NCBI GenBank assembly: GCA_020848905.1
Contig: JADLHG010000020.1
Location: forward strand, 8,230 to 72,229
Length of the DNA: 64,000 nt
From: Deltaproteobacteria bacterium
GTDB taxonomy: Bacteria > Myxococcota_A > Polyangia > GCA-2747355 > JADLHG01
Reading direction: 5' to 3'
Shown: positions 24,990 through 40,466 of the stretch, one piece after another
Numbering within the stretch: the stretch's first letter is position 1
Layout: each line of letters begins with the position of its first letter
The notes under the pieces: model-generated
Told to the model about the DNA's origin: nothing
What the model saw: only the letters and a program-made list of their open reading frames with translations
Databases searched by the model: none
Translations under genes and position numbers: made by a program

Positions 24990-26915
24990 CTAGAAGGTAC
25001 CGGTTACCCCCACCATCCCGCCCCCCGGTGCGGGGCCGAAGGCCAGGTTCAGGTTGAGGTCCGGGTCCTCGCGGTAGAGACGCAGCATGCGTTCCATGGG
25101 GGTCTCCATGTAGCGCAGCGAGACGCCGAGGCCGAAGAGGAGCGCGCTCATGGCTCCGCCCATGACGTAGATCGCGGCGGGGAGGTTGGTGCTCGACAAG
25201 CGGGCGTCCACGATGCCGATCGCCACGGTGGCACCGAGGAGCAGGCCCCCCTCGACGAAGGCCAGCGCGGAGACGAGGCGCCGGCGGCGGGCCTCGCGTT
25301 CGGCGAGCTCGAGGAGGTGCGCTTCGGTGCGGGCCACGACGGACTCGAAGCTCGCCCCGGGGCGTCGGAGCTCGTCTTCGAAGGCGGCGTAGGCCTTCTC
25401 CCCCTCCGAGCGCGCGAAGAGCCGCAGGAGGCCGGTGGCCGCGAGGGCGCCGCCCCCGCCGAGGAGCACGATCGCGGAGATCTTGGTCGTCTGGTCGAGC
25501 TCGCCGCTCTTCATGCCGAGGATCACGCCCCCCGAGGCGGCCACGACCAGGCCCCCGAGGGCGCTCGTGCCGGCGAGGGTCAGCCGGTCGGCGCGGTCGG
25601 CGCGGGCGAGCGCCGCCAGGTAGTGCCGCATGCGCACCTCGTCGCGCCAGGAGATGCCGAAGACCTCTTCGGCCGCCGGGTGCCGTCGTTCGCGCGCGTA
25701 GGCTTCGGGGCCGAAGGGCTCGGCGAAGAACTCCTCGTAGAGCGCGTCGTCCCCGCGGGCGAGGAGTGGCGTCGGGCGCGGGGTGAGCATCACCGAGGCG
25801 GTCGAGGTGGGCAGGCGGATCTCGCGCAGCGTGGGGCGCCCCCCTTTGCCGCGGGCCGCGACGAGCTCTTGCACGATGGCGCCCTCGGTCACGGGCATGG
25901 GCAAGACCAGCGTCAGCTCGCGCCCCCGCTCCTTGTGGACGTCGAGGAGGCGCGTCCCCTGGAGGTCCCGCACCCAGACCCGCTGCGCCGGCGGGCCGAG
26001 CACGAGCTTGCGCCCCACCGCGCGGTCCACGGCGAACAGCGAGGCGCCTCCGTTCTGGTAGGGCCCGCGTGCGAAGACCTTGGGGCGGAAGTGCTCGTTC
26101 TTGATGCGGCGATTCGCTATCGCCACGAAGGCCGCGAGCTCGTCGTACGAGACGCGCCCGTCGCCGTTCGCGTCCGCGGCGCCGGAGAGGCCCGAGCGCA
26201 CCTCGTGGCTGAAGATCCCCGACTGCAGCTCCGACCATTCGTAGACCTCGCCGGCCGCGCTCGTGGAGAGGAAGACCCCGACCTGCGGAAAGCGCTCCAC
26301 GAAGCCGAGCTTCAGGTCCTTCGGGGTGGCCCAGCGGCGGCCGCCGGCCTTGCGCGGGCTGATCACGAAGAAGGAGTTGCAGCTGTCGAGGATCAGGTGC
26401 GCGCGGTGGGCGGGGACCTTTCCCAGCACCTCCCGCTCCAGCTCCTCGGGCCCGAGCCGGCCGTCCTCGAGCTCGAGGTAGCCCTTGCCGCGGTCCACTT
26501 GCCCGTGGCCGGCGAAGACGAAGTAGAAGACCGTGTGCAGTCCCTTTGCACGGGCCGCGCGCACCGCGTCGGCGAGCTCGCGCACGGCCTGACGCAGCTC
26601 GGCGCGCCGAGGGGCCCGCGCGGTGGCCCCGAGCCCCGGATAGAGCGCGGCCGTGGGACGATCGAAGCGCGTGAGCAGGCGCAGGTGCCCGGGTTCGGTG
26701 ATGGTGCGGAAGACCTGCACGTAGCGCGCCCCGTCGTCGTCGGCGTACTGCAGGTTCGGTCGGTGCGGCAGGAGGCTCCGGTTGTTCGTCACCACGAGCG
26801 TGAAGCCGACCTCGGAGGCGGCTTCGACGGGCGACACACTGGCGAGGAGCAGGGCGGCCAGACCCGCCAGCACACCGAACGGTCTGGAACCCGTCGCGAG
26901 CCGACGCCTCCTCAT
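24990..26915 (-). CDS. signal-peptide protein with a caspase-like (clan CD, C14-like) domain, an EF-hand-like Ca-binding loop and four C-terminal TM helices
   Basis: The ATG at 26913..26915 overlaps the anti-sigma gene stop (ATGA). Signal peptide MRRRRLATGSRPFGVLAGLAALLLASVSPVEAA. His-Gly dyad FVFAGHGQ and Cys motif HLILDSCNSFFV match the caspase/metacaspase pattern (HG ... D-x-C). DANGDGRVSYDEL is an EF-hand-like loop. Four hydrophobic helices lie in the last roughly 200 aa. The 810-aa track ORF over-extends upstream. Confidence 0.45.
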   Translation of the reverse strand: MRRRRLATGSRPFGVLAGLAALLLASVSPVEAASEVGFTLVVTNNRSLLPHRPNLQYADDDGARYVQVFRTITEPGHLRLLTRFDRPTAALYPGLGATARAPRRAELRQAVRELADAVRAARAKGLHTVFYFVFAGHGQVDRGKGYLELEDGRLGPEELEREVLGKVPAHRAHLILDSCNSFFVISPRKAGGRRWATPKDLKLGFVERFPQVGVFLSTSAAGEVYEWSELQSGIFSHEVRSGLSGAADANGDGRVSYDELAAFVAIANRRIKNEHFRPKVFARGPYQNGGASLFAVDRAVGRKLVLGPPAQRVWVRDLQGTRLLDVHKERGRELTLVLPMPVTEGAIVQELVAARGKGGRPTLREIRLPTSTASVMLTPRPTPLLARGDDALYEEFFAEPFGPEAYARERRHPAAEEVFGISWRDEVRMRHYLAALARADRADRLTLAGTSALGGLVVAASGGVILGMKSGELDQTTKISAIVLLGGGGALAATGLLRLFARSEGEKAYAAFEDELRRPGASFESVVARTEAHLLELAEREARRRRLVSALAFVEGGLLLGATVAIGIVDARLSSTNLPAAIYVMGGAMSALLFGLGVSLRYMETPMERMLRLYREDPDLNLNLAFGPAPGGGMVGVTGTF

Positions 26916-27745
26916 CGCGCACCTCGCAGCGTCAGGGACCACTCCTGCACGTGCGCCTCGGGAAAGAGCCGCGCGAGCGAGGGGGCCTTCCCGGCGTCGC
27001 GCAGGAGCGCCTCCACCTGCTTCACCGAGCGGCGCTGCCGCGAGACGACCGAGACGGCGCGCAGGAGGCCGGGCTTCGCGTCGGGGGCGAAGACCTCGTG
27101 GAGCATCACGCGGCGCCCCCGCGGCAGGTCGAGCGCGAGCGGAGCCTTCGCCGGGTCGTCCCAGCGGGGGGCCGCCCAGTGCACCTCTCCCCCGGCCTCG
27201 ACGACGAAGACCAGCAGATAGAGCGGCGTGGGGGTGAGCCGGCTCACCTCGACCGCGAGACCCTCGTCGGCCGCGAGCAGATCGTGCGCGTTCAGGCGCC
27301 GGGGAGCGCCGTGCCGCTTTGCCGCGTAGAGCTCGACCCCCGTCAGCTCCTTCAGGCTCTCGGCCGTCGGACCGCCGCCGCGGGCCTGAAAGGTCTCCGC
27401 GCGACCGCCGGTGTGGCGCCACAGATAGACGCAGAGCGGAACGGTCACCGCGAGCACCGTGGCCGCGAGCGCGTAGGGGAGCCAGGAGGCGCGCGACGTC
27501 GCGGTGGGCGAGGGGTCGAGCCGGGCCATCGTGCGCGCCACGAAGGCCGCGGTGTCGGGCGAGGCGTCAGACGACACGCCTGGGGCCGGCGAGGCGATGG
27601 CCGCGAGCGTGACCTCGAGCCGAGAGGCGCGCGACCGGCACTCGCCGCATTCACCGAGGTGCGCCTCGAGGGCGCGAGCGCGCGCCACGGCCACCTGCTC
27701 CTCGCGCAGCGCAAGCAACTCGTCGTCGCTGGGGCAGCTCGTCAT
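26912..27745 (-). CDS. anti-sigma factor (zinc-finger HxxxCxxC type) with one TM helix
   Basis: HLGECGECR motif near the N-terminus, a single TM helix (LPYALAATVLAVTVPLCVYLW), then a periplasmic domain. Its start overlaps the sigma gene stop by 4 bp and its stop overlaps the next gene's start by 4 bp. Confidence 0.6.
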   Translation of the reverse strand: MTSCPSDDELLALREEQVAVARARALEAHLGECGECRSRASRLEVTLAAIASPAPGVSSDASPDTAAFVARTMARLDPSPTATSRASWLPYALAATVLAVTVPLCVYLWRHTGGRAETFQARGGGPTAESLKELTGVELYAAKRHGAPRRLNAHDLLAADEGLAVEVSRLTPTPLYLLVFVVEAGGEVHWAAPRWDDPAKAPLALDLPRGRRVMLHEVFAPDAKPGLLRAVSVVSRQRRSVKQVEALLRDAGKAPSLARLFPEAHVQEWSLTLRGAR

Positions 27746-28338
27746 GCGGAAACCTCCAGTCGGGCGCGTAGCGCGCGCAGACCCAAAAAGACGCGGGAGC
27801 GCACGGTGGCCTCGGGCGCGTCGACGATCGCTCCCACCTCGGCGTACGAGAGCCCTTCGCCGAAGCGCAGCAGCACGGCCTCGCGTAGCTTGGGGGAGAG
27901 ACCCCGGAGCTCGCGGTGCACACGTTCCGTGCGTTCGCGCCGGAGGAGCGCGTCGAGCTGCTCGGCGCGGTGCGACGGCTCGTTTGCCGCCGGGGCGTCC
28001 TGGAGCACGCGCTCGCGGCGAAAGAACCCGCGACGCGCGTTGCGGCAGACGTTGCGCACGATGGTGAAGAGGTACACGGCAAACTGCCCGTCCGGCCGAT
28101 AGCGCGCCCGGGCCTGCCAGAGCCGCAGAAACGCCTCCTGGGCCAGGTCCTCGCTGCGCGCGCCGTCCCACTTGGCGCAGAAGCTCCGCACCCGTCGCTC
28201 GTGTCGCGCGACGAGCGCGGCGAAGGCCTCGCGCAACCCGGCCGCCGCGAGCTCCATCAGCTCGTCGTCGGAGCGTGCCGCGAGCCCGCCCGGTTCGGGG
28301 CGCGGAAACGGCAGCACCTTGGGCTCGAAGCCGGGCAT
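27742..28338 (-). CDS. ECF (sigma-70 family, RpoE-like) RNA polymerase sigma factor
   Basis: Region 2 and region 4 motifs (AQEAFLRLWQARARY..., FTIVRNVCRNARR, LSYAEVGAIVDAPEATVRSRVFLGLRALR). About 198 aa, typical of group IV sigma factors. Confidence 0.8.
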   Translation of the reverse strand: MPGFEPKVLPFPRPEPGGLAARSDDELMELAAAGLREAFAALVARHERRVRSFCAKWDGARSEDLAQEAFLRLWQARARYRPDGQFAVYLFTIVRNVCRNARRGFFRRERVLQDAPAANEPSHRAEQLDALLRRERTERVHRELRGLSPKLREAVLLRFGEGLSYAEVGAIVDAPEATVRSRVFLGLRALRARLEVSA

Positions 28339-28611
28339 CTAGGTACCAGAACCCCCCTAGGCCGGTTTCGTTTAGCAGGGGCGGCGTTCTTTTCCTAGGC
28401 AGGCCGCCCCGCCGGGTGTCTCGCCGCCGCCCCGTAGCCCGCACGACCCCCCGGCGCCCCTCGCCCGTCCTGGCCAGCGGCCCAGCCAGCTCCCGCCCTG
28501 CGGGTCCTCCCACGAGCCCCGCGAACTGCCTATCCTTTTCACGCCCGCCGGCCGTCGTCGGTTGGTCCAGATGTTGCTGTCTCTTGTTTGCACAGGACGC
28601 TGGCCCCACCC

Positions 28612-30285
28612 ATGCCCCGACGGTACAGACTGTTCGTACGTCTCTCCGTGGCCCTCGCGCTGCTTCTGGCGGCCGCGGTGGGTCTCGAGCGACCCAGCGC
28701 CGCCGCGGGGCCAGGCGCGCTCGCGCGACGGTTCTTCGCGGGGCTCGCCAAAGGGCGGGTGAAAGGCTCGCGCGAGCCCGGCCTCGTGCTCGCGGCCAGC
28801 CCCAGCCAGCCGGTCGTGACGTCGCTCTTCGCCGTCGCGCGCAAGGTCGCACGTGGCGGGGCGCTCCATCCGGTCGGGATCGAGCCTTTCTCGAACGACG
28901 AGCTCAGCCTGCGCGTCCCGGCCGCTGTCCAGGGACGATCGATCGTGGTGGCGCAGCCCGCGGAGGCGCGCGAGCCCTCGACGGCGCTCTTCCGCACCCT
29001 GCTCGCGGTGGCGGCGAGCCAGAGCAACCTCGCCTCCTCGGTCCACGTGGTCCTCGATCGCGGCCTCGCGAAGCGCTTCGACCCGGCCTTCGTGGCCACG
29101 CTCTTCTCCGCGCTACACGCGGACTCGCTGCGCTACGCCGATGCGCACGGCGGCCCGCTCGAGCGACTTCTGCGCCCGCTCCGCGGTTCCGCCCTGGCCC
29201 AACGCTTGGGCGTCGACGGACCCCTCGTTCCTCGGCCGGTGCACCTGCCCCGCGAGGGACGCCGTTCCAAGCGCTCGGGCAGCGCCGCTCCGCCGCTGCT
29301 CTGGAGCGGTCACGGCTACCCCGAGCTGGCGCGGGGCGTGGGCGAGGCGATGGGGCTCGCGCCGCGCTTTCTGCCGACGGAGAAGGCCTTCCAGGGCCGC
29401 CAGATCCTCCCCGAGGACCCGGCCGGCCGACGCGTCTATCTCCTGCAGACCAAGCGCCTCGGCGATCCCGAGGCCCTGCACCGGGACCTCTTCGAGGTGC
29501 TCTACGCCGCCTGGCAGGCCAAGCAGCGCGGGGCCGCCGAGGTCACTCTCGTCATGCCCTATCTGCCCTACTCGCGCTCCGATCGCATGGATACCGCCGG
29601 CACCACCGTGGGCGCCGCGGTGCTACCGCAGCTCGCGCGCGCCGTCGGCGTGGACCGCGTGGCCTTCTACTCGGTGCATCAACCCCAAGAGGTCGGCTTC
29701 TTCCTCGGGCAGAAGATCCAGGTGCTGCACGCCTCGGGGGAGGCGGTCCTCGCCCCGGCGGTGGCGCGCCATCTGAAGGCCAAGCTCACGCCGAAGGAGC
29801 TCGCCAAGCACGTACGGGTGCTCGCGCCGGATCCGGGGGCACGCAAGCGCGCGCTGGTCTTCGCGCGCCTGCTCGCCGCCGAGCTCGGCCTGCCGGAGGT
29901 CAAGGTCGTCGTGGCCGAGAAGGAGCGGCACGGCCGCGACGTGAAGACCCGCTTCACCGCGAACGTGCGCAAGGCGGTGCTCGTAGCTATCGACGACGAG
30001 ACGGCGAGCGGCAAGACCCTCGCGCAGCTCGTCGAGCCGGCGCTCGCGAAGGGTGCGACCTCGATGCTCGCCGCGGTGAGCCACCTCACGGGGCCGGCCT
30101 ACCGCCTGCTCGACAGCTCGCGGCTCGAGCGGCTCTTCGCCCTCGACACCGTGCCGCAGCCGCGCGAGCACCACGACAACGCCAAGATCGAGATCGTGAG
30201 CGTGGCCCAGGCCGTGGGCCGGCTGCTCACCACCCTGGATGGGAGAGGGGACCTCTCGAAACAGCTCTTCTGGGAGCACGAATAA
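28612..30285 (+). CDS. ribose-phosphate pyrophosphokinase (PRPP synthetase)-like protein with a Sec-type signal peptide and an N-terminal extra domain of about 190 aa
   Basis: Signal-like N-terminus MPRRYRLFVRLSVALALLLAAAVG. The C-terminal roughly 340 aa align with Prs: VYLLQT.., EVTLVMPYLPYSRSDR (compare PYFGYARQDR), AVGVDRVAFYSVHQPQEVGFF (compare VDRVLTVDLHAEQIQGFF), VLAPDPGARKRA (compare VVSPDIGGVVRA), and the PRPP loop VLVAIDDETASGKTL (compare VLVDDMIDTGGTL). Residues about 35-215 have no recognisable family. Confidence 0.7.
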   Translation: MPRRYRLFVRLSVALALLLAAAVGLERPSAAAGPGALARRFFAGLAKGRVKGSREPGLVLAASPSQPVVTSLFAVARKVARGGALHPVGIEPFSNDELSLRVPAAVQGRSIVVAQPAEAREPSTALFRTLLAVAASQSNLASSVHVVLDRGLAKRFDPAFVATLFSALHADSLRYADAHGGPLERLLRPLRGSALAQRLGVDGPLVPRPVHLPREGRRSKRSGSAAPPLLWSGHGYPELARGVGEAMGLAPRFLPTEKAFQGRQILPEDPAGRRVYLLQTKRLGDPEALHRDLFEVLYAAWQAKQRGAAEVTLVMPYLPYSRSDRMDTAGTTVGAAVLPQLARAVGVDRVAFYSVHQPQEVGFFLGQKIQVLHASGEAVLAPAVARHLKAKLTPKELAKHVRVLAPDPGARKRALVFARLLAAELGLPEVKVVVAEKERHGRDVKTRFTANVRKAVLVAIDDETASGKTLAQLVEPALAKGATSMLAAVSHLTGPAYRLLDSSRLERLFALDTVPQPREHHDNAKIEIVSVAQAVGRLLTTLDGRGDLSKQLFWEHE

Positions 30286-30311
30286 GGACGGGATCGAGGG
30301 AAAGGGAAAGG

Positions 30312-31349
30312 ATGAGGGAGATGAGACGCACGCGCTGCACCACTTCGATCGTCGCCGGGTTGCTCGCCGCGACGCTCTTCGCCGCACTGCCCGCCGGCGC
30401 GACCAAGCGCACGGGCAAGCAACCCACCGACCGTATCCTTCTGCCGCGCGTGAGCTCGGAGCGGGCGGTGCGCGAGATCGGCCAGGCGATCGTGCGCAAG
30501 GTCCTCGCCATGGGCAAATCGGGGGTGGTCCTCGGGCTCTCGGGTGGCTCGGACTCCACCGTGGTCGCCGGCATCACCAAGCGCGCCTTCGACGCCTACA
30601 ACCGGCAGAACCCGGACAAGCCGCAGCTCGAGGTGGTGGGGATGATCCTCCCCTCGAAGACCAATACGGCGCAGGACACCGCGGACGGCGTCCTCGTGGC
30701 CAAGACGCTGGGCATCCGCTACGAGGTGGCGAGCATCGAGCCGCTCGTGCGCGCCTTCAAGAAGGTCAACCGCGCGGCCATGAAGAACTCCTTCACCAAG
30801 GGGAACACCATGTCCGAGCTTCGCGCCGTGGTGCTGCACACCAAGGCGGCCTCGGACACCGACGCGCAGGGACGTAACAAGTTCGTGATCGGGACCGGCA
30901 ACCGCGACGAGGACGTGGAGACGGGCTTCTACACCCTCTTCGGGGACGGGGCCGTGCACTTCAGCCCGATCGGCAACCTCTCCAAGCGGCACGTCTTCCA
31001 GCTCGCGCGGTGGTTCGGCTTCATGGACATCGCGCGCAAGGAGCCCTGGGCGGGCCTCGAGGCGGGGCAGACGGCCTTCAAGGCGCTCGGCTATCACTAC
31101 GCCCTCGCCGAGCTCGTGAACCGCGGCGTAGAGCAGGGCTTCACCGCCGAGGTCCTTGCGCGGCAGCCCCAGGTGCTGCGCCGGGCGGGCAAGGACCTGG
31201 GCGACTACCAGAGGCTCTTTGGCGCGCCGAAGTACGCGACGGTTCGCGAGCTCGTGGACGCCATCATCTGGCGCAAGGAGCATATCGCCAAGCCCAAGGG
31301 CGAGCTCGTTCGCCCCGAGGTGGCCGGCGTCACCCTGACCTATAGGTAG
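30312..31349 (+). CDS. nadE: NH3-dependent NAD+ synthetase (NadE) with an N-terminal Sec-type signal peptide
   Basis: PP-loop VLGLSGGSDS. FVIGTGNRDEDVETGFYTLFGDGAVHFSPIGNLSKRHVFQLA aligns with E. coli NadE [40 protein letters not shown]. The N-terminus MREMRRTRCTTSIVAGLLAATLFAALPAGA/TKR is a classical n-h-c signal. The mature core aligns from about residue 30. Confidence 0.8.
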   Translation: MREMRRTRCTTSIVAGLLAATLFAALPAGATKRTGKQPTDRILLPRVSSERAVREIGQAIVRKVLAMGKSGVVLGLSGGSDSTVVAGITKRAFDAYNRQNPDKPQLEVVGMILPSKTNTAQDTADGVLVAKTLGIRYEVASIEPLVRAFKKVNRAAMKNSFTKGNTMSELRAVVLHTKAASDTDAQGRNKFVIGTGNRDEDVETGFYTLFGDGAVHFSPIGNLSKRHVFQLARWFGFMDIARKEPWAGLEAGQTAFKALGYHYALAELVNRGVEQGFTAEVLARQPQVLRRAGKDLGDYQRLFGAPKYATVRELVDAIIWRKEHIAKPKGELVRPEVAGVTLTYR

Positions 31350-31358
31350 GATCGGACC

Positions 31359-32231
31359 GTGCGGCTCAGGCGTCTCACCCTCCTCGTCGCGCTGCTCCTT
31401 TGCAGCGGCTCGCCCGCCTGGGCCAAGCTCCCGGCGGGGGCCGACGCGACGGTGCTCGTCGAGGGGGACCCGCGTACGCGCTTTCGGGTGGCGGGCCTCG
31501 ACCTCGCCTCCGGGCTGAAGCCCGGCACGCGCATCGCCCTGCTCGGGGCCTCCGTAGATCCCATCTCGCTCGCGCATCTGGTCCTCGCCGCGCTGCCGCT
31601 CGTCGATCCGGCGGTGCGCGCCCAGCTCGGCGTGGACCAGGTCTGGATCGTTCCCTCGCCGCCGCGACCGGACAAGGCCCAGCGCGTGCCGAACGGCCGG
31701 CGCTTCGCCTGGACGCGGCTCGCCGCGCGCTACCTGCGCAAGAAAGGCCTTCCGGTCTACGCCACCGACGTGGAGCTGAGGCTCGCGAAAGGCGGCTTTC
31801 GTGGCACCTATCAGCTCCTGAAGGCCCTCGAGCGGCGCTTCCCCGGGGTCGAGCTGAGCGTGATCGTGGGCGAGGACGTCTGGAACGACCTGCCCACGAG
31901 CAAGTGGCGCAACGGCCTCGGTGTGGTGCGCGAGCATTCGCTCTTCGTGGCCCTGCGGGGCGATCACGCGGACCCGAAGAAGGCCAAGGCGCGCGTGGTG
32001 AAGGAGGCGCTCGAGCGGCAGGCCCGGCAGGTGATCCTGCTCCCCGACGCCCAGGAACCGGGTCTGCGCGAGCGACTGACCCGGCTCCTGCCGCGGGGCT
32101 TCGACCTCAAGCTGCTGCCGACCCTCAGCAGCACTGCCCTGCGTGAGGCCTTCGCCCGTGGGGAGCGCTCGCCCGTCGGCGTGCTCCCCGCCGTGGCGAG
32201 AGCCATCCTGCGCGCTGGCTCCTACCGCTAG
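31359..32231 (+). CDS. NadD-like nicotinate-nucleotide adenylyltransferase homolog with a signal peptide and a degenerate HxGH motif
   Basis: Signal peptide MRLRRLTLLVALLLCSGSPAWA/K. NadD family motifs are present: IVPSPPRPDK (compare IIPNNVPPHRP), VIVGEDVWNDLPTSKW (compare IIGQDSLLTFPTW) and LSSTALRE (compare ISATIIRE). The N-terminal nucleotidyltransferase motif is LLGASVDPISLAHL instead of FGGTFDPxHxGHL, so the first His is replaced by Ser and the Gly by Ala. Confidence 0.6.
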   Translation: MRLRRLTLLVALLLCSGSPAWAKLPAGADATVLVEGDPRTRFRVAGLDLASGLKPGTRIALLGASVDPISLAHLVLAALPLVDPAVRAQLGVDQVWIVPSPPRPDKAQRVPNGRRFAWTRLAARYLRKKGLPVYATDVELRLAKGGFRGTYQLLKALERRFPGVELSVIVGEDVWNDLPTSKWRNGLGVVREHSLFVALRGDHADPKKAKARVVKEALERQARQVILLPDAQEPGLRERLTRLLPRGFDLKLLPTLSSTALREAFARGERSPVGVLPAVARAILRAGSYR

Positions 32232-32364
32232 TCTGGCCAGGGCGAGGGCCGCCCGGCACCGGCCCATCTGCTGGAAATCCATGGGCCCGAGGCCGCGCCG
32301 GAGCGGCACGGATCCTGCTGTCTATCGTGGGCAGCATCCGAACCGTGTCCTCGGGAGAAGGCCC

Positions 32365-33225
32365 ATGAAGGCTGCTCTGACCTCTGCATCGCTCTGGCTG
32401 GCCGCGCTCGCCGCGCTGCTGCCGTCGCCCGCCGTCGCGGCGCGCGAGCCGAAGCAGGGCTCGAACCGGGGCAAGCAGAGCTCGGTGGTCTCCATGCTCG
32501 GCGGCCGCTGTCCGACGAAGAACGGCGTCGTCGCGCTGCGCGAGCCGAAGCGCCACGGGAAGCGCGCGCTCCTCATCGTCGATCCCCAGAATGCCTTCAT
32601 GCCCGGGGGCGCCCTCGCCGTGAAGCACGGGGACCGCATCGTCCCGGTGGCGAACCGCCTGATGGGGCTCTTCGACCTGGTGGTGGTCTCGCTCGACTGG
32701 CACCCGGCGAACCACGGCAGCTTCGTCACCCAGCACCCCGGCAAGCAGGTCTTCGACGTGATCGATCTGCACGGCATCCAGCAGGTCCTCTGGCCCAAGC
32801 ACGCCCCGCGCGGTCGCAAAGGGTCGGACATCCACCCCGGGCTCGACCGGAAGCGCATCACGCACCTCGTGCTCAAGGGCAACGACAAGCGCGTGGACAG
32901 CTACAGCGCCTTCTACGACAACGGCCGGCGGAGCTCGACCGGGCTCGCCGCGTACCTGCGCTCGAAGGGGATCGAGGAGCTCTACGTGATGGGGCTCGCC
33001 ACCGACTACTGCGTGAAGTTCACCGTGCTCGACGCGGTGAAGGAAGGGTTCACCACGCACGTGATCAAGGCCGGCTGCCGCGGTGTGAATGCGCGGCGGG
33101 GCGACAGTGGGCGCGCGGTGAAGGCCATGAAGAAGGCCGGCGCGAAGATCCTCGGTGATGCGGCGCTCGAGGCCCTCCTCGGCGGCGCTCCGCAGGCCGC
33201 CCGAGGGAAGCGAGGTCAGCCGTGA
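32365..33225 (+). CDS. pncA: nicotinamidase/pyrazinamidase (PncA, isochorismatase family) with an N-terminal signal peptide
   Basis: RALLIVDPQNAFMPGGALAV matches E. coli PncA RALLLVDLQNDFCAGGALAV. GLATDYCVKFTVLDA provides the catalytic Cys. The N-terminus MKAALTSASLWLAALAALLPSPAVAA is a classical signal, followed by a linker of about 35 aa before the conserved core. Confidence 0.8.
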   Translation: MKAALTSASLWLAALAALLPSPAVAAREPKQGSNRGKQSSVVSMLGGRCPTKNGVVALREPKRHGKRALLIVDPQNAFMPGGALAVKHGDRIVPVANRLMGLFDLVVVSLDWHPANHGSFVTQHPGKQVFDVIDLHGIQQVLWPKHAPRGRKGSDIHPGLDRKRITHLVLKGNDKRVDSYSAFYDNGRRSSTGLAAYLRSKGIEELYVMGLATDYCVKFTVLDAVKEGFTTHVIKAGCRGVNARRGDSGRAVKAMKKAGAKILGDAALEALLGGAPQAARGKRGQP

Positions 33226-34841
33226 AGCGTACCGTTCGAAGCTCCCGCTTCTCCGTGCTCCTGGCCGCGCTCGCGCTCGTGCTCGCGCCCCTCGCTCCGG
33301 CGCAGGCGGCGCCCAAGCCCACGAACCCGACCACCGTGGGCCTCTACAAGAAGGGGGCGCTCGGGCTGCTCACCGACATGTACCAGCTCACCATGGGCTT
33401 CGGCTTCTGGAAGACGGGGCACGCCGACGACGAGGTGGTCTTCAACCTCTATTTCCGCAAGAACCCTTTCAAGGGGGGCTACGCCGTCGCCGCGGGTCTC
33501 GATACGGCGATCGATCTGGTGAAGAACTTCCGCATCACCGACAAGAACGTGGCCTACCTCTCCACGCTCAAGGGGAACGACGGCCGCCCGCTCTTCGACC
33601 GCGGCTACCTCCAGACCCTGCGCACCATGCGCTTCAACTGCGACATCGACGCTGTCCCCGAGGGGACGGTGGTCTTCCCGAACGAGCCGCTCCTGCGCAT
33701 CCGGGGCCCGCTCCTGCAGGTGCAGCTCCTCGAGACCGTGCTGCTCAACATCCTCAACTTCCAGACGCTGATCGCCACCAAGGCCTCGCGCGTCGTGCAG
33801 TCCGCCAAGGGGGACCCGGTCCTCGACTTCGGCCTGCGGCGCGCGCAGGGCTTCGACGGGTCGCTCTCCGCCTCGCGCGCCTGCTACCTCGCGGGCGCGG
33901 CCGGCACCTCGAACGTCGCCGCCGGCGAGCTCTTCGGCATCCCCGTCAAGGGCACGCACGCGCACAGCTGGGTCATGTTCCATCCGACCGAGGTGGAGGC
34001 CTTCGAGAACTACTCCCGCGTGATGCCCAATAACTCGGTCTTCCTGGTCGACACCTACGACACGCTGAACGGGGTGAAGAACGCGATCACCGTGGCCAAG
34101 CGCCTGCGCAAGCGCGGGCACGAGGCCCTCGGCATTCGCCTCGATTCGGGAGACCTCGCGAAGCTGAGCAAGAAGAGCCGCACCATGCTGGACGAGGCGG
34201 GCTTCCCGCAGGCCTTCGTCTCGGCCTCGAACGACCTCGACGAGCATGAGATCGCCGCGCTCAAGAAGCGCGGGGCGAAGGTCAACGTCTGGGGTGTGGG
34301 CACGAAGATGATCACCGCCTTCGACCAGCCCGCGCTCGGCGGCGTCTACAAGCTCGCCGCCGTGCGCCGCCCCGACGGCACCTGGGAGCGCAAGATCAAG
34401 CTCTCCGAGACGCCCGAGAAGACCTCCACCCCCGGCATCCTGCAGGTGCGCCGCTTCATGAAGGACGGCAAGTTCCTCGGCGACATGATCTGGGACCTCC
34501 TGAGCCCGCCCAAGGACCAGGGCCGGATGGTGAGCTACGCCGATGCGAGCCGCGTGACCCGCTTTGCCGGCGCCACGCACCAGGACCTGCTCGTCCCCGT
34601 CTTCCGGCGGGGCAAGAACGCCGCGCGCTTCGTGATGCGGCAGCTCCCGCTCGAGCAGGAGCGCGCCTACTGCCGCACGCAGCTCGAGGCGCTCCGCCCC
34701 GGGGTGAAGCGCCTGACCAAGCCGACCCCGTACAAGGTGGGCATGGAGCTCGGCCTGAATCAGGTGCGGCAGGAGCTCATGGCCAACGCGCGGTCCACGC
34801 AGGGTGCGAGCAGCCCGCGCACGCCGCGTCGCGTGAAGTAG
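33222..34841 (+). CDS. pncB: nicotinate phosphoribosyltransferase (PncB, NAPRTase family) with an N-terminal signal peptide
   Basis: The GTG start overlaps the pncA stop (GTGA). NAPRTase N-terminal motif LLTDMYQLTMGFG. Family-typical ...SRAC..AGAAGTSNV..., FGIPVKGTHAHSWVM and VDTYDT. Signal peptide MKRTVRSSRFSVLLAALALVLAPLAPAQAA. Confidence 0.8.
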   Translation: MKRTVRSSRFSVLLAALALVLAPLAPAQAAPKPTNPTTVGLYKKGALGLLTDMYQLTMGFGFWKTGHADDEVVFNLYFRKNPFKGGYAVAAGLDTAIDLVKNFRITDKNVAYLSTLKGNDGRPLFDRGYLQTLRTMRFNCDIDAVPEGTVVFPNEPLLRIRGPLLQVQLLETVLLNILNFQTLIATKASRVVQSAKGDPVLDFGLRRAQGFDGSLSASRACYLAGAAGTSNVAAGELFGIPVKGTHAHSWVMFHPTEVEAFENYSRVMPNNSVFLVDTYDTLNGVKNAITVAKRLRKRGHEALGIRLDSGDLAKLSKKSRTMLDEAGFPQAFVSASNDLDEHEIAALKKRGAKVNVWGVGTKMITAFDQPALGGVYKLAAVRRPDGTWERKIKLSETPEKTSTPGILQVRRFMKDGKFLGDMIWDLLSPPKDQGRMVSYADASRVTRFAGATHQDLLVPVFRRGKNAARFVMRQLPLEQERAYCRTQLEALRPGVKRLTKPTPYKVGMELGLNQVRQELMANARSTQGASSPRTPRRVK

Positions 34842-34842
34842 T

Positions 34843-37665
34843 CTACGGCCCGCAGGTGAGCAGGAACGGCCTCTGCGCGCCGCCCATCGTTCCCATGCCG
34901 ACGATGTGCCCTTTCTTGTTGATGGCGAGGGCACGGACGAGGGACCAGCCCGCGCCGGCGGGGAGCAGGCCGTTGAGGTCTTCGAGCTTTCCGTCCTTCC
35001 AGCGTACGGCCCGCTTCACCGATTCTCCGACGATCACCCCCGCGTCGTTGACGCCGTGGGCAATGCTGATGTCACCGCCGGGGAGCACCGTCATGCCGCC
35101 GCCCGACCAAGAGGCTGCACGTCCCTCCCCGGAGAAGTTGCTCACGACGCCCACGACGAGCCCTGACGCGTTGATGCCGTTGGCGCTGCTGAGCCTCCAG
35201 TCTCCAGATCCCGCACCCAGATCCTGAACCCCTCCGCCGCTGAAGAGGCACGCGTGCGCGTCGGGGCCGACACCGGGCGCCGCCGGCAGATTGGCCTGTC
35301 CCACCACCTGATCCGCCTCGTTCAGCGCGTGGCCCTGGCTGTTGTCGCTGAGCGTGCCCAGGTCCGTGACGCTGCCGCCGGTCCAGAGAACGGCGTGCGA
35401 GAAGCCCGTGCTCAGCGCGGCCCGGCCGGCTACATGGCCCGCTTGGTTGATGGCGTAGGCCACGGCCACGTTTCCGCCGAGCGTCCCGAGGTCCTGCATC
35501 GCCCCGTTGTGCCATATGAACGCGCGCTGCGTTCCGCTGCTCGACGTCGACGTACCCACCACGTCCTTGGCGTCGTTGATGCCTAGGGCTCGGCTGGTCG
35601 ATCCACCGAGGGTGCCCAGGTCCCGCATCGTGCCGTTGTCCCAGAGGAAGGCGTGCTCGTTACTCCCGCTGCTCGCGTAGCACCAGCCGGCGACCTGTCC
35701 GGTGTTGTTGAGCGCCTGGGCGGTGCAATCCCCGCCGAGCGTGCCCAGGTCCTTGATCACGCACGAGGAGCCCTTGCCGAGCTCGAGCGCCAGGTTGTCG
35801 AAGGGCAGGAGCCGCGTCATGACGAAGGCCGAGAAGTCGCTCGTCTGCCCGACGTCGGTCGCGGTGAACGGGAGGGCGAAGCTCGTCTGCCCCGCCGTGG
35901 CGGTCGCGCGGCCCGCCTCGACGAAGGAGGAGGTGCCGACCTTGCGCACCAGGATGATGTCCTTCACGTTGTAAGGCCCCACCGTGGGCGGAAACGTGAC
36001 CGTCGCGGGGTCGAGCTCGACGGTGAAGGTGACCTTGTCTCCGGCGACGAAGCTGCCCCGATCGGCGGTCAGCGTGCCCTTGGGAGACTCCGCGAGCGGC
36101 CTCGACGACTGGAGCTCGAGGATCGTGATGTCCGTGATGCCGAACTGGCCGAGCATCTTGGGCAGGTCCACGCCCACGCTCCCCTTGCTCACCAGGGACA
36201 GTTTGTAGGACGACGCGTAGGCGGGGTCCGCGAGCTGGTCGCCCCACGGCGCGAAGCTGCCCTCGAGCGTCGGCCCGTAGCGCAGGGAGAACGGGGTAAG
36301 GCGCAGCCGCTTGAAGATCGGGTTGCCGAGGCCGACCTTGGCCAGACCGAACACGGCGAAGCTGGCATCTACCCGCAGGTCGTTGGTCGTGGGTTTCTTC
36401 CAGACCGGCTCGGCGCTGGCGCTCGCCGTCAGGCTGCGTACGAACTCGCAGTTGGTTCCTTTCGGACAGGCGACGCCGAGCTCCGCCTGCGCCTTGGCCT
36501 CCGCCTTGGCGCCCACGACCAGGTTCGTCAGCGCCACCTTGCCGCCGAGCTCGACGCCGACGCTGAGGGGGATCACCACGGACACCACCCAGGAGAGCGC
36601 CCCCGCGATGGGAATGCGGAGCTCGAAGAACTCCCGCGTGCACGACACGGTGCCCTGAAAGCCGAGCGCCACGGTGAGGCTGCCGTCCAAGGTCGCGCCG
36701 AGGTCTCCCTTGGCGACCAGCCGTTCGAGGCCCACGCCGGAGGTGTAGACGAAGTCGAGGCTGAGGTTGCGGTTGATGCTGACCGCGGGGGCCGTGCCGA
36801 GCGTGACCGGCCACTGGCTCACCCCCGTGGCGTCGAGCTCGCACTCGTCGAAGGGCGGCATCTTGAAGGAGAGCTTCGTGGCCTGCCGCTCGCCGGTCGC
36901 CCCGCTCGAGGCGGCGTCCGCCTTGGGCCGAGGCTTGAAGCGGATCGTGGACCCCTCGCGCGTGATCTCGTAGGCGTCCTTGAGGTCCGAGGCGATCTCG
37001 GGCTCGACGGTCGAGAGGTCGAAGACCTCCTTGATGCTCAGGTGAGGCAGGAGCTCCTTGACGGGCACGACCGCGAGCGTGACTCGCACCTGGTCGCCGT
37101 CCCGCTGCGCGGAGACGACCTTGCCGCCGACGGGCTTGGCCTCGAGACCGATCACCAGAGTGCCCGGCGGCGGCGCGTCCACGCCGGCGAGTACGACCTC
37201 GTAGGTGGCGCCGGTCACGGGTGCGGCGCTGGGGTCGATCGCCCTCGGGTCCCCGACGAGCTGGGCGTCCGTCACCGCGAGCGCGCCCGGGGGCAACGCC
37301 GTGACGGCCACCAGGAGCGGCGGGGAGGTCACGCCCTGGGCCTCGGCGACGAGCTGACTCGCGCCGTTCTGCACCTGGGCCGTGATCATTCCCTGCCCGT
37401 CGACGGCGATGCTGGCCGGTGTGGTCGAGCGCCACGAGATGGGCGGCGCGGCCACAACGCGACCTTCGGCGTCGTACGCGTTCACCGCGAGCTGTCGCTT
37501 CGCCCCCGCGGCCGTGAGGAGCAGCCCCTTAGGGACGATCTCGAGGCGCGCGACCGGACCCGCGGGTCCCGTCGAAGCGTCCTTGCAGCCGACGAGCCCG
37601 GCGACAAGCCCGAGCGAAGACAGGTTGACTACGACCCACCACTGCCACGTCCCCCGGATGCGCAT
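34843..37665 (-). CDS. large surface lipoprotein with a Big_2-like Ig domain and C-terminal HAF repeats
   Basis: Lipobox LVAGLVGC. The N-terminal region resembles a bacterial Ig-like domain. The C-terminal third contains at least 7 repeats of DLGTLGG..S.A.GIN..G.VVG (the HAF-type extracellular repeat). It converges on the pncB stop with only 1 bp between the stop codons. Confidence 0.65.
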   Translation of the reverse strand: MRIRGTWQWWVVVNLSSLGLVAGLVGCKDASTGPAGPVARLEIVPKGLLLTAAGAKRQLAVNAYDAEGRVVAAPPISWRSTTPASIAVDGQGMITAQVQNGASQLVAEAQGVTSPPLLVAVTALPPGALAVTDAQLVGDPRAIDPSAAPVTGATYEVVLAGVDAPPPGTLVIGLEAKPVGGKVVSAQRDGDQVRVTLAVVPVKELLPHLSIKEVFDLSTVEPEIASDLKDAYEITREGSTIRFKPRPKADAASSGATGERQATKLSFKMPPFDECELDATGVSQWPVTLGTAPAVSINRNLSLDFVYTSGVGLERLVAKGDLGATLDGSLTVALGFQGTVSCTREFFELRIPIAGALSWVVSVVIPLSVGVELGGKVALTNLVVGAKAEAKAQAELGVACPKGTNCEFVRSLTASASAEPVWKKPTTNDLRVDASFAVFGLAKVGLGNPIFKRLRLTPFSLRYGPTLEGSFAPWGDQLADPAYASSYKLSLVSKGSVGVDLPKMLGQFGITDITILELQSSRPLAESPKGTLTADRGSFVAGDKVTFTVELDPATVTFPPTVGPYNVKDIILVRKVGTSSFVEAGRATATAGQTSFALPFTATDVGQTSDFSAFVMTRLLPFDNLALELGKGSSCVIKDLGTLGGDCTAQALNNTGQVAGWCYASSGSNEHAFLWDNGTMRDLGTLGGSTSRALGINDAKDVVGTSTSSSGTQRAFIWHNGAMQDLGTLGGNVAVAYAINQAGHVAGRAALSTGFSHAVLWTGGSVTDLGTLSDNSQGHALNEADQVVGQANLPAAPGVGPDAHACLFSGGGVQDLGAGSGDWRLSSANGINASGLVVGVVSNFSGEGRAASWSGGGMTVLPGGDISIAHGVNDAGVIVGESVKRAVRWKDGKLEDLNGLLPAGAGWSLVRALAINKKGHIVGMGTMGGAQRPFLLTCGP

Positions 37666-40450: not shown

Positions 40451-40466
40451 CGGTCAGGAGGGGGCG

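What the first reader, a model, noticed from the sequence alone, without database searches (positions are those of the whole stretch)
31359..32231. NadD-like adenylyltransferase with the catalytic HxGH motif replaced by S-L-A-H
The protein retains three NadD family blocks: IVPSPPRPDK, VIVGEDVWNDLPTSKW and LSSTALRE. The N-terminal (H/T)xGH nucleotidyltransferase signature reads GASVDPISLAHL instead of GGTFDPxHxGHL. Both the first His and the Gly of HxGH are changed. This motif grips the ATP phosphates in all class I nucleotidyltransferases. The protein is therefore either an inactive scaffold, uses a different nucleotide or acceptor, or has a compensating residue elsewhere. Combined with its signal peptide, this argues that the exported pathway is not a simple copy of the cytoplasmic one.
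Basis: seen in the sequence. Interest (0 to 1): 0.62.

Follow-up and report, generated by a model that had tools for sequence, protein, structure and literature searches.

The report
Exported, divergent NadD-like adenylyltransferase (SLAH motif)
This gene encodes a very divergent relative of the NAD-making enzyme NadD. Its odd "SLAH" motif is a mild variant of a normal family motif and gives no sign of inactivity; the strange part is that it and four partner NAD-salvage enzymes all carry export signals.

Summary
The ORF at 31359-32231 (+) is real and reads as described. G63-A-S-V-D-P-I-S70-L-A72-H73 aligns column for column with GGxFDPxHxGH of solved NadD structures, and no other HxGH exists (the protein has only three His). 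The inference of lost function is not supported. Among 160 aligned stretches from the 150 nearest relatives, position 1 is H 95, T 61, S 2, Q 2. Position 3 is G 91, A 44, S 8, D 8. Only the last His is invariant, and it is kept. The best PDB match, E. faecium NadD, itself reads HLAH. TxAH is the second commonest form, so SLAH is TxAH with Ser for Thr. The query keeps 24 of 26 conserved family columns, including LSSTALR. An AlphaFold model (pLDDT 88) matches only NadD/NMNAT structures. The more unusual residue is V66, which is Phe in 154 of 160. The unusual features are the context and rarity. prs-like, nadE, this gene, pncA and pncB form one operon, and each has a textbook Sec-type signal peptide lying in sequence with coding periodicity. 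The protein is close to an orphan: its nearest relative (38% identity) also has a signal peptide. I read it as a probably active, exported NaMN adenylyltransferase. Where it would get ATP is unexplained.

The parts
31359..32231 (+). NadD/NMNAT-family adenylyltransferase-like ORF, 290 aa, GTG start. NCBI accession MCC6747907.1, named 'hypothetical protein'.
   Evidence: ORF list. NCBIfam NadD models give E 5e-14 to 3e-13 but score below their cut-offs. AF2 model has pLDDT 88 and pTM 0.84. All top 50 Foldseek PDB hits are NadD/NMNAT, with TM (target-normalised) 0.63-0.82. The protein is identical in a second assembly, with 2 synonymous differences.
31359..31424 (+). Predicted Sec-type signal peptide, aa 1-22: MRLRRLTLLVALLLCSGSPAWA, with cleavage expected before K23.
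   Evidence: The n-region carries +3 charge, the h-region is 10 uncharged hydrophobic residues, and an AxA site follows. In-frame GC3 is 0.91, against 0.64-0.70 in the intergenic spacers. pLDDT is below 50 and the segment is not packed in the model. SignalP was not available.
31425..31526 (+). 34-aa linker between the signal peptide and the Rossmann core (KLPAGADATVLVEGDPRTRFRVAGLDLASGLKPG). It contains an in-frame GTG at codon 32 that could be an alternative start.
   Evidence: Translation. Two short strands are predicted at low to medium confidence. The nearest relative, P0002, has a comparable linker.
31545..31577 (+). ATP-binding block G63-A-S-V-D-P-I-S70-L-A72-H73, the equivalent of GxFxPx(H/T)xxH. 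S70 is at 31566-31568 and H73 at 31575-31577.
   Evidence: Alignments. Residue tallies among relatives: position 70 is H 95 / T 61 / S 2 / Q 2; position 72 is G 91 / A 44; position 73 is H 159 of 160; position 66 is F 154 with V only in the query.
31647..31676 (+). IVPSPPRPDK block, the equivalent of the NadD 'P-x-x-x-PP-H/R-K' loop. P99, R103, D105 and K106 are conserved.
   Evidence: The E. coli NadD flexible loop His-45/Arg-46 was assigned to the active site in PMC1249556.
31860..31907 (+). VIVGEDVWNDLPTSKW block. G171 and D173 correspond to E. coli D109. W183 is the conserved Trp of the pyridine-nucleotide pocket.
   Evidence: G171 and W183 are invariant and D173 is 95% conserved in 55 homologues. 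The role of D109 is from PMC1249556. The role of the Trp rests on my own knowledge of NadD structures.
32124..32147 (+). LSSTALRE, the C-terminal ISSTxxR ATP-binding motif (S257, S258, T259, R262).
   Evidence: S257 is 91%, S258 is 96% and R262 is 100% conserved. The motif definition is from PMC5889475.
28612..30285 (+). First gene of the operon: a ribose-phosphate diphosphokinase (Prs)-like protein of 557 aa. It has a signal peptide (aa 1-31) and an extra N-terminal region of about 200 aa.
   Evidence: TIGR01251 scores 130.6 bits against a cut-off of 113. Signal-peptide heuristic. NCBI calls the same 557-aa form. The N-terminal region gives a weak Pribosyltran_N hit, E 3e-4.
30312..31349 (+). 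NH3-type NAD+ synthetase (NadE) with a signal peptide. It is 345 aa, or 342 aa from the second ATG.
   Evidence: TIGR00552 scores 131.9 bits against a cut-off of 63.65. PF02540 gives E 3e-42. Signal peptide. NCBI calls the 342-aa form, which keeps the signal peptide.
32365..33225 (+). Nicotinamidase (PncA), 286 aa, with a signal peptide (aa 1-25).
   Evidence: NF008623 scores 249 bits against a cut-off of 174. There is a purine-rich Shine-Dalgarno (SD)-like ribosome-binding sequence before the ATG. Both strain differences inside the signal-peptide codons are third-position changes.
33222..34841 (+). Nicotinate phosphoribosyltransferase (PncB), 539 aa, with a signal peptide (aa 1-29). Its start overlaps the pncA stop (GTGA).
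   Evidence: NF006695 scores 564 bits against a cut-off of 469. GC3 is 0.92 in codons 1-52. The signal-peptide changes between strains are R9L, A18V and V20A, which keep it hydrophobic. NCBI called a 487-aa form without the signal peptide.

Best explanation
The ORF encodes a highly divergent but probably catalytically competent member of the NadD/NMNAT adenylyltransferase family, made as a precursor with a cleavable Sec-type signal peptide.

S70-L-A-H73 is the family's (H/T)xxH ATP-binding motif in its 'T-type' form, with Ser in place of Thr. Ala at the third position is found in about a quarter of the relatives.

Inferred mechanism, by analogy with solved NadD/NMNAT enzymes:
- The loop G63-H73 and the C-terminal S257-S258-T259...R262 hold the ATP phosphates.
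- H73 stabilises the transition state.
- D173, R103/K106, T150 and W183 form the mononucleotide pocket.
- The 5'-phosphate of nicotinate mononucleotide attacks the alpha-phosphate of ATP, giving NaAD and PPi.

The operon context (prs-like, nadE, this gene, pncA, pncB) makes NaMN the expected substrate. It places the enzyme as step 3 of a self-contained Preiss-Handler route: nicotinamide to nicotinate to NaMN to NaAD to NAD+. All five proteins of that route carry signal peptides, so the route appears to be targeted outside the cytoplasm.

Shown here: homology, fold, retention of conserved residues, natural variability of the two 'changed' positions, coding status of the signal-peptide segment, and operon structure.

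Inferred: catalytic activity, NaMN preference, actual export, and where the ATP comes from.
For: Motif register and variability:
- The alignment to solved NadD chains is in register, and the best hit, 8aih, reads GGTFNPVHLAHL.
- Tallies over 160 stretches: HxGH 70, TxAH 28, TxGH 20, HxAH 14, SxAH 2. The last His is present in 159 of 160.
- A second, independent SxAH protein exists: P0090, GGTFDPISNAHL.

Literature:
- The motif is T/HXGH, and E. coli H19A (the second His) keeps 0.62% activity. [quoted passage not shown] Conservation and fold:
- 24 of 26 columns conserved at 75% or more in 55 homologues are retained, including D67, H73, K106, R115, T150, G171, D173, W183, R200, S257, S258 and R262.
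- The AF2 model has pLDDT 88.2 and pTM 0.84. All 50 best PDB matches are NadD/NMNAT.
- The nearest relative, P0002 (38% identity, E 8.5e-28), also has a signal peptide and a canonical HLGH. Both proteins keep the family-conserved positions (invariant columns), so this small signal-peptide-bearing pair looks enzymatic.
- The second strain (98.7% DNA identity) has an identical protein with two synonymous changes.

Operon partners:
- PncA, PncB, NadE and Prs score above curated NCBIfam cut-offs.

Signal peptides:
- 5 of 5 operon genes pass the heuristic, against 16 of 69 coding-like ORFs and 1 of 102 non-coding-frame ORFs in the window.
- GC3 is 0.87-0.94 in four of the five signal-peptide segments (0.78 for the prs-like gene), against 0.64-0.70 in the spacers.
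- Purine-rich Shine-Dalgarno (SD)-like ribosome-binding sequences lie upstream of the nadE, pncA and pncB starts, with a weaker one before nadD. pncA and pncB overlap by GTGA.
- NCBI keeps the signal peptide on Prs, NadE and this protein.
Against: - No activity data exist.
- The block deviates from the literal published motif at three positions at once: G to A64, F to V66 (unique among 160) and H/T to S70. No relative combines all three.
- The protein scores far below all curated NadD cut-offs (52 bits against 112-240). Pfam PF01467 does not report it at E below 0.1.
- Three steps of the pathway, plus Prs, need ATP, and I know of no established ATP pool in the bacterial periplasm. An exported, working pathway therefore lacks an obvious energy source.
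- Signal peptides were judged with a home-made heuristic, not SignalP.
- An in-frame GTG at codon 32 could give a cytoplasmic isoform.
- The cluster is seen in only two near-identical assemblies, so comparative support is thin.
Confidence: 0.6

Rival explanations
1. Active enzyme with altered chemistry. The combined A64/V66/S70 changes retune the nucleotide pocket. The protein would then prefer another substrate pair (NMN instead of NaMN, or another NTP). Alternatively, it would run mainly in reverse outside the cell: pyrophosphorolysis of NAD/NaAD to mononucleotide plus ATP, or scavenging of dinucleotides released by prey.
For: - V66 is unique among 160 relatives, and three deviations cluster in the ATP-binding loop.
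- The protein is an orphan with long branches to all relatives.
- An extracytoplasmic location, implied by the signal peptide, makes the ATP-consuming forward direction hard to sustain.
- The NMNAT reaction is reversible (established enzymology, from my own knowledge).
Against: - All substitutions are conservative (G to A, F to V, T/H to S).
- The mononucleotide-pocket residues conserved in relatives (T150, D173, W183) are unchanged.
- The operon supplies exactly the forward Preiss-Handler partners, all scoring as bona fide family members. A Prs and a NadE make little sense for a degradative route.
Confidence: 0.2
2. Pseudoenzyme or scaffold. Loss of the first His and the Gly would abolish ATP binding, and the protein would serve only as a structural partner for the other exported enzymes.
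For: - The literal HxGH is absent. The block also has V for the near-invariant Phe.
- The protein scores below curated family thresholds and is not recognised by Pfam PF01467.
Against: - The mutationally critical second His is retained, as are D67, K106, R115, D173, W183 and SSTxxR: 24 of 26 conserved columns in all. Pseudoenzymes typically lose such residues.
- T/S-type and Ala-containing motifs occur in 61 and 44 of 160 relatives. Literature motif definitions that include characterised NMNATs allow them.
- The solved E. faecium NadD has HLAH.
- Between strains the protein has zero non-synonymous and two synonymous changes.
Confidence: 0.1
3. Ordinary cytoplasmic NadD paralogue. The 'signal peptide' would be an artefact of choosing the most upstream start in a GC-rich ORF. 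Alternatively, both a long and a short isoform are made, and the working enzyme starts at the GTG of codon 32.
For: - An in-frame GTG at codon 32 is preceded by a G-rich stretch.
- NCBI itself chose a downstream start for the neighbouring PncB (487 aa, no signal peptide). PncA also has an internal Met44.
- All characterised NadD enzymes are cytoplasmic (my own knowledge).
Against: - Codons 1-31 show strong in-frame coding periodicity (GC by codon position 0.74/0.61/0.94). The flanking spacers show none.
- No other gene overlaps that stretch.
- The single strain difference there is a third-position change.
- The same n-h-c architecture with an AxA site occurs in all five consecutive genes, against 1 of 102 in non-coding-frame ORFs.
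- The only close relative, from a 42% GC organism, also starts with a signal peptide.
- Both NCBI and the ENA gene caller chose the long form for this gene.
Confidence: 0.1

Closest known systems
Bacterial NadD (nicotinate-mononucleotide adenylyltransferase, EC 2.7.7.18), e.g. Enterococcus faecium NadD (PDB 8AIH), Bacillus subtilis NadD (1KAM), B. anthracis NadD (3HFJ), E. coli NadD
   Same: - Same fold: Foldseek target-normalised TM 0.72-0.82.
- Same order of motifs: GxFxPx(H/T)xxH, P-x-x-P-P-R/H-x-x-K loop, GxD...W block, SSTxxR.
- The E. faecium enzyme also has Ala at the third motif position (HLAH).
- It sits in an operon with nadE, pncA and pncB, as expected for the Preiss-Handler step.
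   Different: - 17-22% identity to the solved structures.
- Scores 52 bits against curated cut-offs of 112-240.
- Has Ser instead of His/Thr at motif position 1, Val instead of the near-invariant Phe, and Ala for the second Gly.
- Has about 55 extra N-terminal residues, including a signal peptide, and is about 60 residues longer in the mature part.
- No characterised NadD that I know of is exported.
Eukaryotic-type NMNATs (human NMNAT1/3, PDB 1KKU, 1NUP; Plasmodium NaMNAT 5LLT) and other 'T-type' relatives
   Same: - They use Thr, a hydroxyl residue like Ser, at the first motif position, with a variable third position. The motif is written GxFxPx[H/T]xxH (PMC5889475).
- TxAH and TxGH make up 48 of the 160 nearest stretches.
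- Structural matches have query-normalised TM 0.58-0.60, the highest in the list.
   Different: - Those enzymes accept NMN and NaMN and are nuclear, cytosolic or mitochondrial.
- They lack the bacterial operon context.
- The query's PSPPRPDK block resembles a bacterial 'PSPxRWDK' subgroup (P0003, P0004, P0013) rather than eukaryotic NMNATs.
Uncurated bacterial 'PSPxRWDK' NadD-like subgroup (P0003, P0004, P0007, P0013 and others) and the singleton P0002
   Same: - These are the best sequence relatives, at 33-38% identity.
- They share VW-x-PSPPR-x-DK, RGTY, GED..W and SST..R.
- They also fall below NCBIfam NadD cut-offs.
- P0002 also has a signal peptide.
   Different: - Apart from P0002 they have no signal peptide and sit in unrelated, housekeeping-like neighbourhoods.
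- They carry HxGH, HxAH or TxAH and the canonical Phe.
[quoted passage not shown]
   Same: It is a precedent for a nucleotidyl-transferring, ATP-dependent enzyme that carries a signal peptide and is targeted to the periplasm (bioRxiv 10.64898/2026.03.22.713542; PMC10799422).
   Different: - Unrelated fold and reaction.
- It is a single enzyme that could be adenylated once before or during export. It is not a five-enzyme pathway needing a continuous ATP supply.

Membership tests
NadD/NMNAT adenylyltransferase family (homology level) | Rossmann-like nucleotidyltransferase fold superposable on solved NadD/NMNAT structures | tested here: met
   AF2 model has pLDDT 88.2 and pTM 0.84. The top 50 Foldseek PDB hits are all NadD/NMNAT, with E 3e-10 to 2e-7 and target-normalised TM 0.63-0.82.
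NadD/NMNAT adenylyltransferase family (homology level) | N-terminal ATP motif GxFxPx(H/T)xxH (T/HxGH) | tested here: inconclusive
   The register is certain, and P68, D67 and the critical last His (H73) are present. The literal pattern fails at three positions: A64 for G (Ala in 9 of 160 relatives), V66 for F (unique), and S70 for H/T (2 of 160). All three changes are conservative.
NadD/NMNAT adenylyltransferase family (homology level) | C-terminal ISSTxxR motif | tested here: met
   L256-S-S-T-A-L-R262. S257, S258 and R262 are conserved in 91-100% of 55 homologues.
NadD/NMNAT adenylyltransferase family (homology level) | Active-site residues defined by E. coli NadD mutagenesis (T11, D13, H19, R46, D109) | tested here: met
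   The aligned residues are S65, D67, H73, R103 (loop) and D173. T to S at position 65 is the majority state among relatives (S 90 of 160). The R46-R103 correspondence is by block alignment only.
NadD equivalog as curated (NCBIfam TIGR00482, NF000843 and others; Pfam PF01467) | Score at or above the curated cut-off | tested here: not met
   Best scores are 52.2 bits against a cut-off of 240 (NF000843) and 50.0 against 112.45 (TIGR00482). PF01467 is not reported at E of 0.1 or less. NCBI names it 'hypothetical protein'.
NadD (functional) | Catalyses NaMN + ATP to NaAD + PPi, with a preference for NaMN over NMN | not testable with these tools
   Only context is available: the gene is co-oriented and tightly spaced with nadE, pncA, pncB and prs, all of which score above curated cut-offs.
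Sec (type I) signal peptide | Positively charged n-region, uncharged hydrophobic h-region of 7-15 residues, c-region with small residues at -3/-1, and translation of that segment | tested here: met
   MRLRR (+3), LTLLVALLLC, then SGSPAWA|K. In-frame GC3 is 0.91-0.94. The -1 residue before Cys15 is Leu, so it is not a lipobox. The heuristic passes 1 of 102 control ORFs.
Sec (type I) signal peptide | Actual export and cleavage | not testable with these tools
   This needs SignalP/DeepTMHMM scoring, reporter fusions or proteomics.
Pseudoenzyme (catalytically dead homologue) | Loss of residues essential for catalysis or substrate binding | tested here: not met
   H73, D67, D173, K106, R115, W183 and S257-S258-T259-R262 are retained. 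24 of 26 conserved columns are kept.
Preiss-Handler NAD+ salvage operon | Presence of nicotinamidase, NaPRTase, NaMN adenylyltransferase and NAD synthetase genes in one transcription unit | tested here: met
   The genes are same-strand, with gaps of 26, 9 and 133 nt and a 4-nt overlap. The family scores of the four partners are above cut-off. No terminator-like site lies on the + strand within 27600-35200. The same order is found in an independent assembly.

The most novel reading that the evidence does not exclude
This protein would be one component of a complete, ATP-dependent NAD+ salvage pathway (Prs-like, PncA, PncB, NadD-like, NadE). The pathway would be exported by Sec and operate outside the cytoplasm: in the periplasm, in outer-membrane vesicles, or in or on lysed prey of a myxobacterium-like predator. 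That would be extracytoplasmic NAD+ synthesis in a bacterium, which I found described nowhere in the searchable literature. The unusual A64/V66/S70 ATP loop might then be an adaptation to that environment.
Probability: 0.3. Interest if true: 0.85.

Novelty: new variant of a known kind. Interest (0 to 1): 0.5.

Why it matters
On its own, the SLAH motif is a small lesson. (H/T)xGH is really (H/T)xxH in this family, and Ser can stand in for Thr, so motif-based calls of 'dead enzyme' are unsafe here.

The context matters more. NAD+ synthesis is regarded as strictly cytoplasmic in bacteria, and periplasmic NAD enzymes known so far degrade NAD rather than make it. Five consecutive salvage enzymes with export signals, one of them a near-orphan NadD-like protein, would be a new compartment for cofactor synthesis if they are truly exported and active. 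That would raise a concrete, testable question about where extracytoplasmic ATP and PRPP come from in a predatory or vesicle-producing bacterium.

The case also shows that annotation pipelines missed or altered it. This protein is named 'hypothetical', and the PncB start was trimmed to remove the signal peptide.

Tried and rejected
- **Second HxGH elsewhere in the protein.** None exists. The protein has only three His.
- **Close homologues, to see whether SLAH is conserved.** The word-index search returned only the protein itself. The exhaustive search found one relative below 1e-21, P0002, which is itself a singleton. A scan of GTDB species genomes found nothing. The conservation of Ser70 across orthologues therefore could not be assessed.
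- **Genomic context of relatives.** P0002 lies on a 2.4-kb, 42% GC contig between two small secreted proteins, with no NAD genes. P0003 and P0004 are in unrelated neighbourhoods. No second exported NAD cluster was found.
- **PncB homologues with signal peptides.** None of the 119 best hits other than the protein's own NCBI form (about 55-61% identity) has one as annotated.
- **Paralogues of the five genes elsewhere in the window.** None.
- **An NAD-consuming exported enzyme next door that would give exported NAD a purpose.** The neighbours are an ECF sigma factor, an unknown 810-aa protein (weak EF-hand and caspase-like hits), an HAF-repeat lipoprotein, an OmpA-like protein and an MXAN_6577-like Cys-rich protein. 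Nothing is NAD-related.
- **Sigma-70 promoter and terminator scan of the operon.** Uninformative. A by-eye look for an ECF-type GAAC...CGTC promoter upstream of prs found only a badly spaced match.
- **Literature on exported or periplasmic bacterial NAD synthesis.** Nothing relevant.
- **Lipoprotein reading of LLLC15.** Rejected, because Leu at -1 does not fit a lipobox.
- **Tat reading of 'RR'.** The motif fit is poor, and this was left open.
Full report
**What is there.** The window is 71% G+C. The ORF at 31359-32231 (+) encodes 290 aa starting at GTG. NCBI holds the identical protein as MCC6747907.1, 'MAG: hypothetical protein IT371_09635 [Deltaproteobacteria bacterium]'. An independent ENA metagenome contig (L001) is 98.7% identical over 7.4 kb. 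It carries the same five genes in the same order and an identical copy of this protein, so the locus is not an assembly artefact.

**Family assignment.** NCBIfam NadD models match at E 5e-14 to 3e-13 over nearly the full profile (residues 61-284 on positions 1-189 of 194 of TIGR00482). The scores (50-52 bits) are far below the curated cut-offs (112-240), and Pfam PF01467 does not report the protein at all. phmmer against PDB sequences finds only NadD chains. An AlphaFold2 model built on 56 sequences is confident (pLDDT 88.2, pTM 0.84). Only residues 1-24 fall below 50. Its 50 best Foldseek matches in the PDB are all bacterial NadD, Plasmodium NaMNAT or human, mouse or fungal NMNAT, with target-normalised TM 0.63-0.82. 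It is therefore a true but very divergent NadD/NMNAT homologue.

**The motif.** Three independent alignments put G63-A-S-V-D-P-I-S70-L-A72-H73 on GGxFDPxHxGH. They are phmmer against PDB, phmmer against the 150 best representatives and MAFFT. The protein has only three histidines (73, 193, 203), so there is no alternative HxGH. The two 'changed' positions, however, are the variable ones.
- In 160 aligned stretches, position 1 is H 95, T 61, S 2, Q 2.
- Position 3 is G 91, A 44, S 8, D 8 and others.
- Position 4 is H in 159 of 160.
- By type: HxGH 70, TxAH 28, TxGH 20, HxAH 14.

The best PDB hit, E. faecium NadD (8AIH), reads HLAH. The literature writes the motif as T/HXGH, or for NMNATs GxFxPx[H/T]xxH with a second motif ISSTxxR (PMC1249556; PMC5889475). 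In E. coli NadD the second His was assigned to the active site: H19A keeps 0.62% activity. That paper also states that the roles of the two His vary between enzymes. SLAH is therefore TxAH with Ser for Thr. A second protein with SxAH exists, apparently independently: P0090, an EF-hand fusion with SNAH.

V66 replaces a Phe found in 154 of 160 relatives, and the query is the only one with Val. A64 replaces the second Gly, where Ala occurs in 9 of 160. The ATP loop thus carries three conservative deviations together, which no relative does.

**Signs of an intact enzyme.** Of 26 columns conserved at 75% or more among 55 homologues, the query keeps 24. These are G63, D67, P68, H73, D93, W96, P99, R103, D105, K106, R115, E139, T150, L157, P162, G171, D173, W183, R200, S257, S258, R262 and Y289, plus the initiator Met (M1). 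It differs only at F66V and F166L. The residues aligned with the E. coli active-site residues are present:
- T11 aligns with S65.
- D13 aligns with D67.
- H19 aligns with H73.
- The loop Arg aligns with R103.
- D109 aligns with D173.

Between the two strains the gene has two synonymous and no non-synonymous differences. This is too few for a test, but it is consistent with constraint. The nearest relative, P0002 (38% identity, E 8.5e-28), comes from a 42% G+C contig. It keeps all these residues with a canonical HLGH. These data argue against a dead scaffold.

**Rarity.** The word-indexed search of 5.8 billion clusters returned only the protein itself. The exhaustive HMMER search of 1.84 billion representatives gave 610 hits at E of 1e-3 or less. 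Only one was below 1e-21, namely P0002, and P0002 is itself a singleton. Nothing was found in 185,579 species genomes. The next relatives are a bacterial subgroup with PSPxRWDK (P0003, P0004, P0007, P0013 and others), interleaved with long T-type proteins; I take these to be eukaryote-like NMNATs, from their motifs only. All fall below the NCBIfam NadD cut-offs. The two contexts examined are unrelated and housekeeping-like.

**Operon and signal peptides.** Five same-strand genes run from 28612 to 34841.
- Prs-like, 557 aa: TIGR01251 scores 131 bits against a cut-off of 113.
- NadE: TIGR00552 scores 132 against 64.
- The NadD-like gene.
- PncA: NF008623 scores 249 against 174.
- PncB: NF006695 scores 564 against 469.

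The gaps are 26, 9 and 133 nt, and pncA and pncB overlap by GTGA. Every one begins with a basic n-region, an uncharged hydrophobic stretch of 10-16 residues, a Pro/Gly-containing c-region and an AxA-type site:
- Prs: MPRRYRLFVRLSVALALLLAAAVGLERPSAA|A
- NadE: MREMRRTRCTTSIVAGLLAATLFAALPAGA|T
- NadD-like: MRLRRLTLLVALLLCSGSPAWA|K
- PncA: MKAALTSASLWLAALAALLPSPAVA|A
- PncB: MKRTVRSSRFSVLLAALALVLAPLAPAQA|A

The same heuristic passes 16 of 69 coding-like ORFs and 1 of 102 ORFs in non-coding frames of this window. GC-rich composition alone therefore does not produce such N-termini.

The signal-peptide segments have the coding signature of this genome. GC3 is 0.87-0.94 (0.78 for prs), and GC2 is about 0.55-0.62. 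The two intergenic spacers show no periodicity, with third-position GC of 0.64-0.70. Purine-rich Shine-Dalgarno (SD)-like ribosome-binding sequences lie upstream of the nadE, pncA and pncB starts, with a weaker one before nadD.

Strain differences inside these segments are third-position changes (nadD codon 24; pncA codons 3 and 7). In PncB they are R9L, A18V and V20A, which preserve a signal peptide. NCBI's own calls keep the signal peptide on Prs, NadE and this protein but trim PncB to 487 aa. None of the 119 best PncB homologues other than the protein's own NCBI form has such an extension.

I conclude that the five precursors really carry Sec-type signal peptides. Formal SignalP scoring and experimental export remain to be done.

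**How it most likely works.** After cleavage at A22|K23, a mature protein of about 268 aa with the NadD fold binds ATP. The binding elements are the G63-H73 loop (S65, S70 hydroxyls and backbone amides, H73) and the S257-S258-T259...R262 motif. It binds nicotinate mononucleotide with T150, D173, W183 and the R103/K106 loop, and forms NaAD + PPi. NadE, next door, amidates NaAD to NAD+. PncA and PncB supply NaMN from nicotinamide, and the Prs-like enzyme supplies PRPP. The steps after 'binds' are inferred from the family, not shown here.

**The unexplained part: energy.** Prs, NadD and NadE (and optionally PncB) consume ATP, and I know of no established ATP pool in the periplasm. One precedent for a periplasm-targeted ATP-dependent enzyme exists, Lig E, but that is a single enzyme. 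The neighbourhood looks myxobacterial and rich in envelope proteins:
- an ECF sigma factor, divergently transcribed;
- an HAF-repeat lipoprotein;
- an OmpA-like protein;
- an MXAN_6577-like Cys-rich protein;
- an FGE-sulfatase/MopE protein;
- a trypsin-like protease.

Action in vesicles or on lysed prey is therefore conceivable, but it is pure inference. I found no paper describing exported bacterial NAD synthesis.

**Rivals.**
- *Altered substrate or direction (0.2).* Favoured by the unique V66 with A64 and S70, and by the location. Disfavoured by the unchanged mononucleotide pocket and the forward-pathway partners.
- *Pseudoenzyme (0.1).* Disfavoured by the retained catalytic residues.
- *Cytoplasmic enzyme with a mis-assigned start, or dual isoforms from the GTG at codon 32 (0.1).* Disfavoured by the coding periodicity of codons 1-31 and by the five-fold recurrence of signal peptides.

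**Verdict.** The inference of lost or radically changed function from SLAH is not supported. The protein is a new, near-orphan variant of the NadD/NMNAT family, and its real oddity is its export signal within an apparently exported five-enzyme NAD+ salvage operon. Interest is 0.5 overall: low for the motif itself and high for the context. If extracytoplasmic NAD+ synthesis were demonstrated, it would deserve about 0.85.

Noticed in passing
window 28612-34841 (+): All five genes of the prs-like / nadE / nadD-like / pncA / pncB operon begin with textbook Sec-type signal peptides in sequence that shows coding periodicity. An entire ATP-dependent NAD+ salvage route therefore appears to be targeted outside the cytoplasm.
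   Followed up: partly
window 28702-29292 (+), Prs-like residues ~31-227: The Prs-like protein has about 200 extra residues between its signal peptide and the Prs core. They give only a weak, sub-threshold hit to Pribosyltran_N (E 3e-4), so this may be a degenerate duplicated N-domain.
   Followed up: partly
window 33222-33377 (+): NCBI annotates PncB as 487 aa starting at Met53, which removes the signal peptide. The upstream GTG overlaps the pncA stop (GTGA), has an SD-like sequence, and codons 1-52 have GC3 of 0.92. The long form called in the ENA assembly is more likely correct.
   Followed up: yes
window 34843-35180 (-), C-terminal end of the 940-aa HAF-repeat lipoprotein: Between the window and the second strain (L001), the operon differs at about 0.5% of sites. 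The last ~330 nt compared, which encode the C-terminus of the HAF-repeat lipoprotein, carry about 55 differences including indels. This is a local hypervariable region.
   Followed up: no
window 27742-28338 (-) and 24990-27422 (-): An ECF-type sigma factor is transcribed divergently from the NAD operon. It is followed by an 810-aa protein with only weak EF-hand and caspase-like hits, possibly a regulatory pair for the operon. No convincing ECF promoter was seen upstream of prs.
   Followed up: partly
L002 1-2405 (Logan ERR4592243), gene at 790-1713: P0002 is the only near relative of the target (38% identity, canonical HLGH). It also has a signal peptide and lies between two small proteins that also have signal peptides, on a 42% GC contig. 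It is itself a singleton in the protein collection.
   Followed up: partly
protein P0090 (345 aa, from the representative search): P0090 is an NMNAT-like protein fused to an N-terminal EF-hand-like segment. It carries GGTFDPISNAHL, which looks like an independent occurrence of Ser at the first motif position.
   Followed up: no
window 55303-63975 (-): A 2890-aa ORF has GH94 supersandwich and catalytic domains plus a glucoamylase-like domain. It resembles a cyclic beta-1,2-glucan synthase (an identification made from memory). The ORF ends close to the window edge.
   Followed up: no
window 18448-19637 (-), 38311-42584 (both strands): There are many small ORFs with lipoprotein-type or Sec-type N-termini and no family hits. 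The region around the operon is enriched in envelope and secreted proteins (16 of 69 coding-like ORFs pass the signal-peptide heuristic).
   Followed up: no
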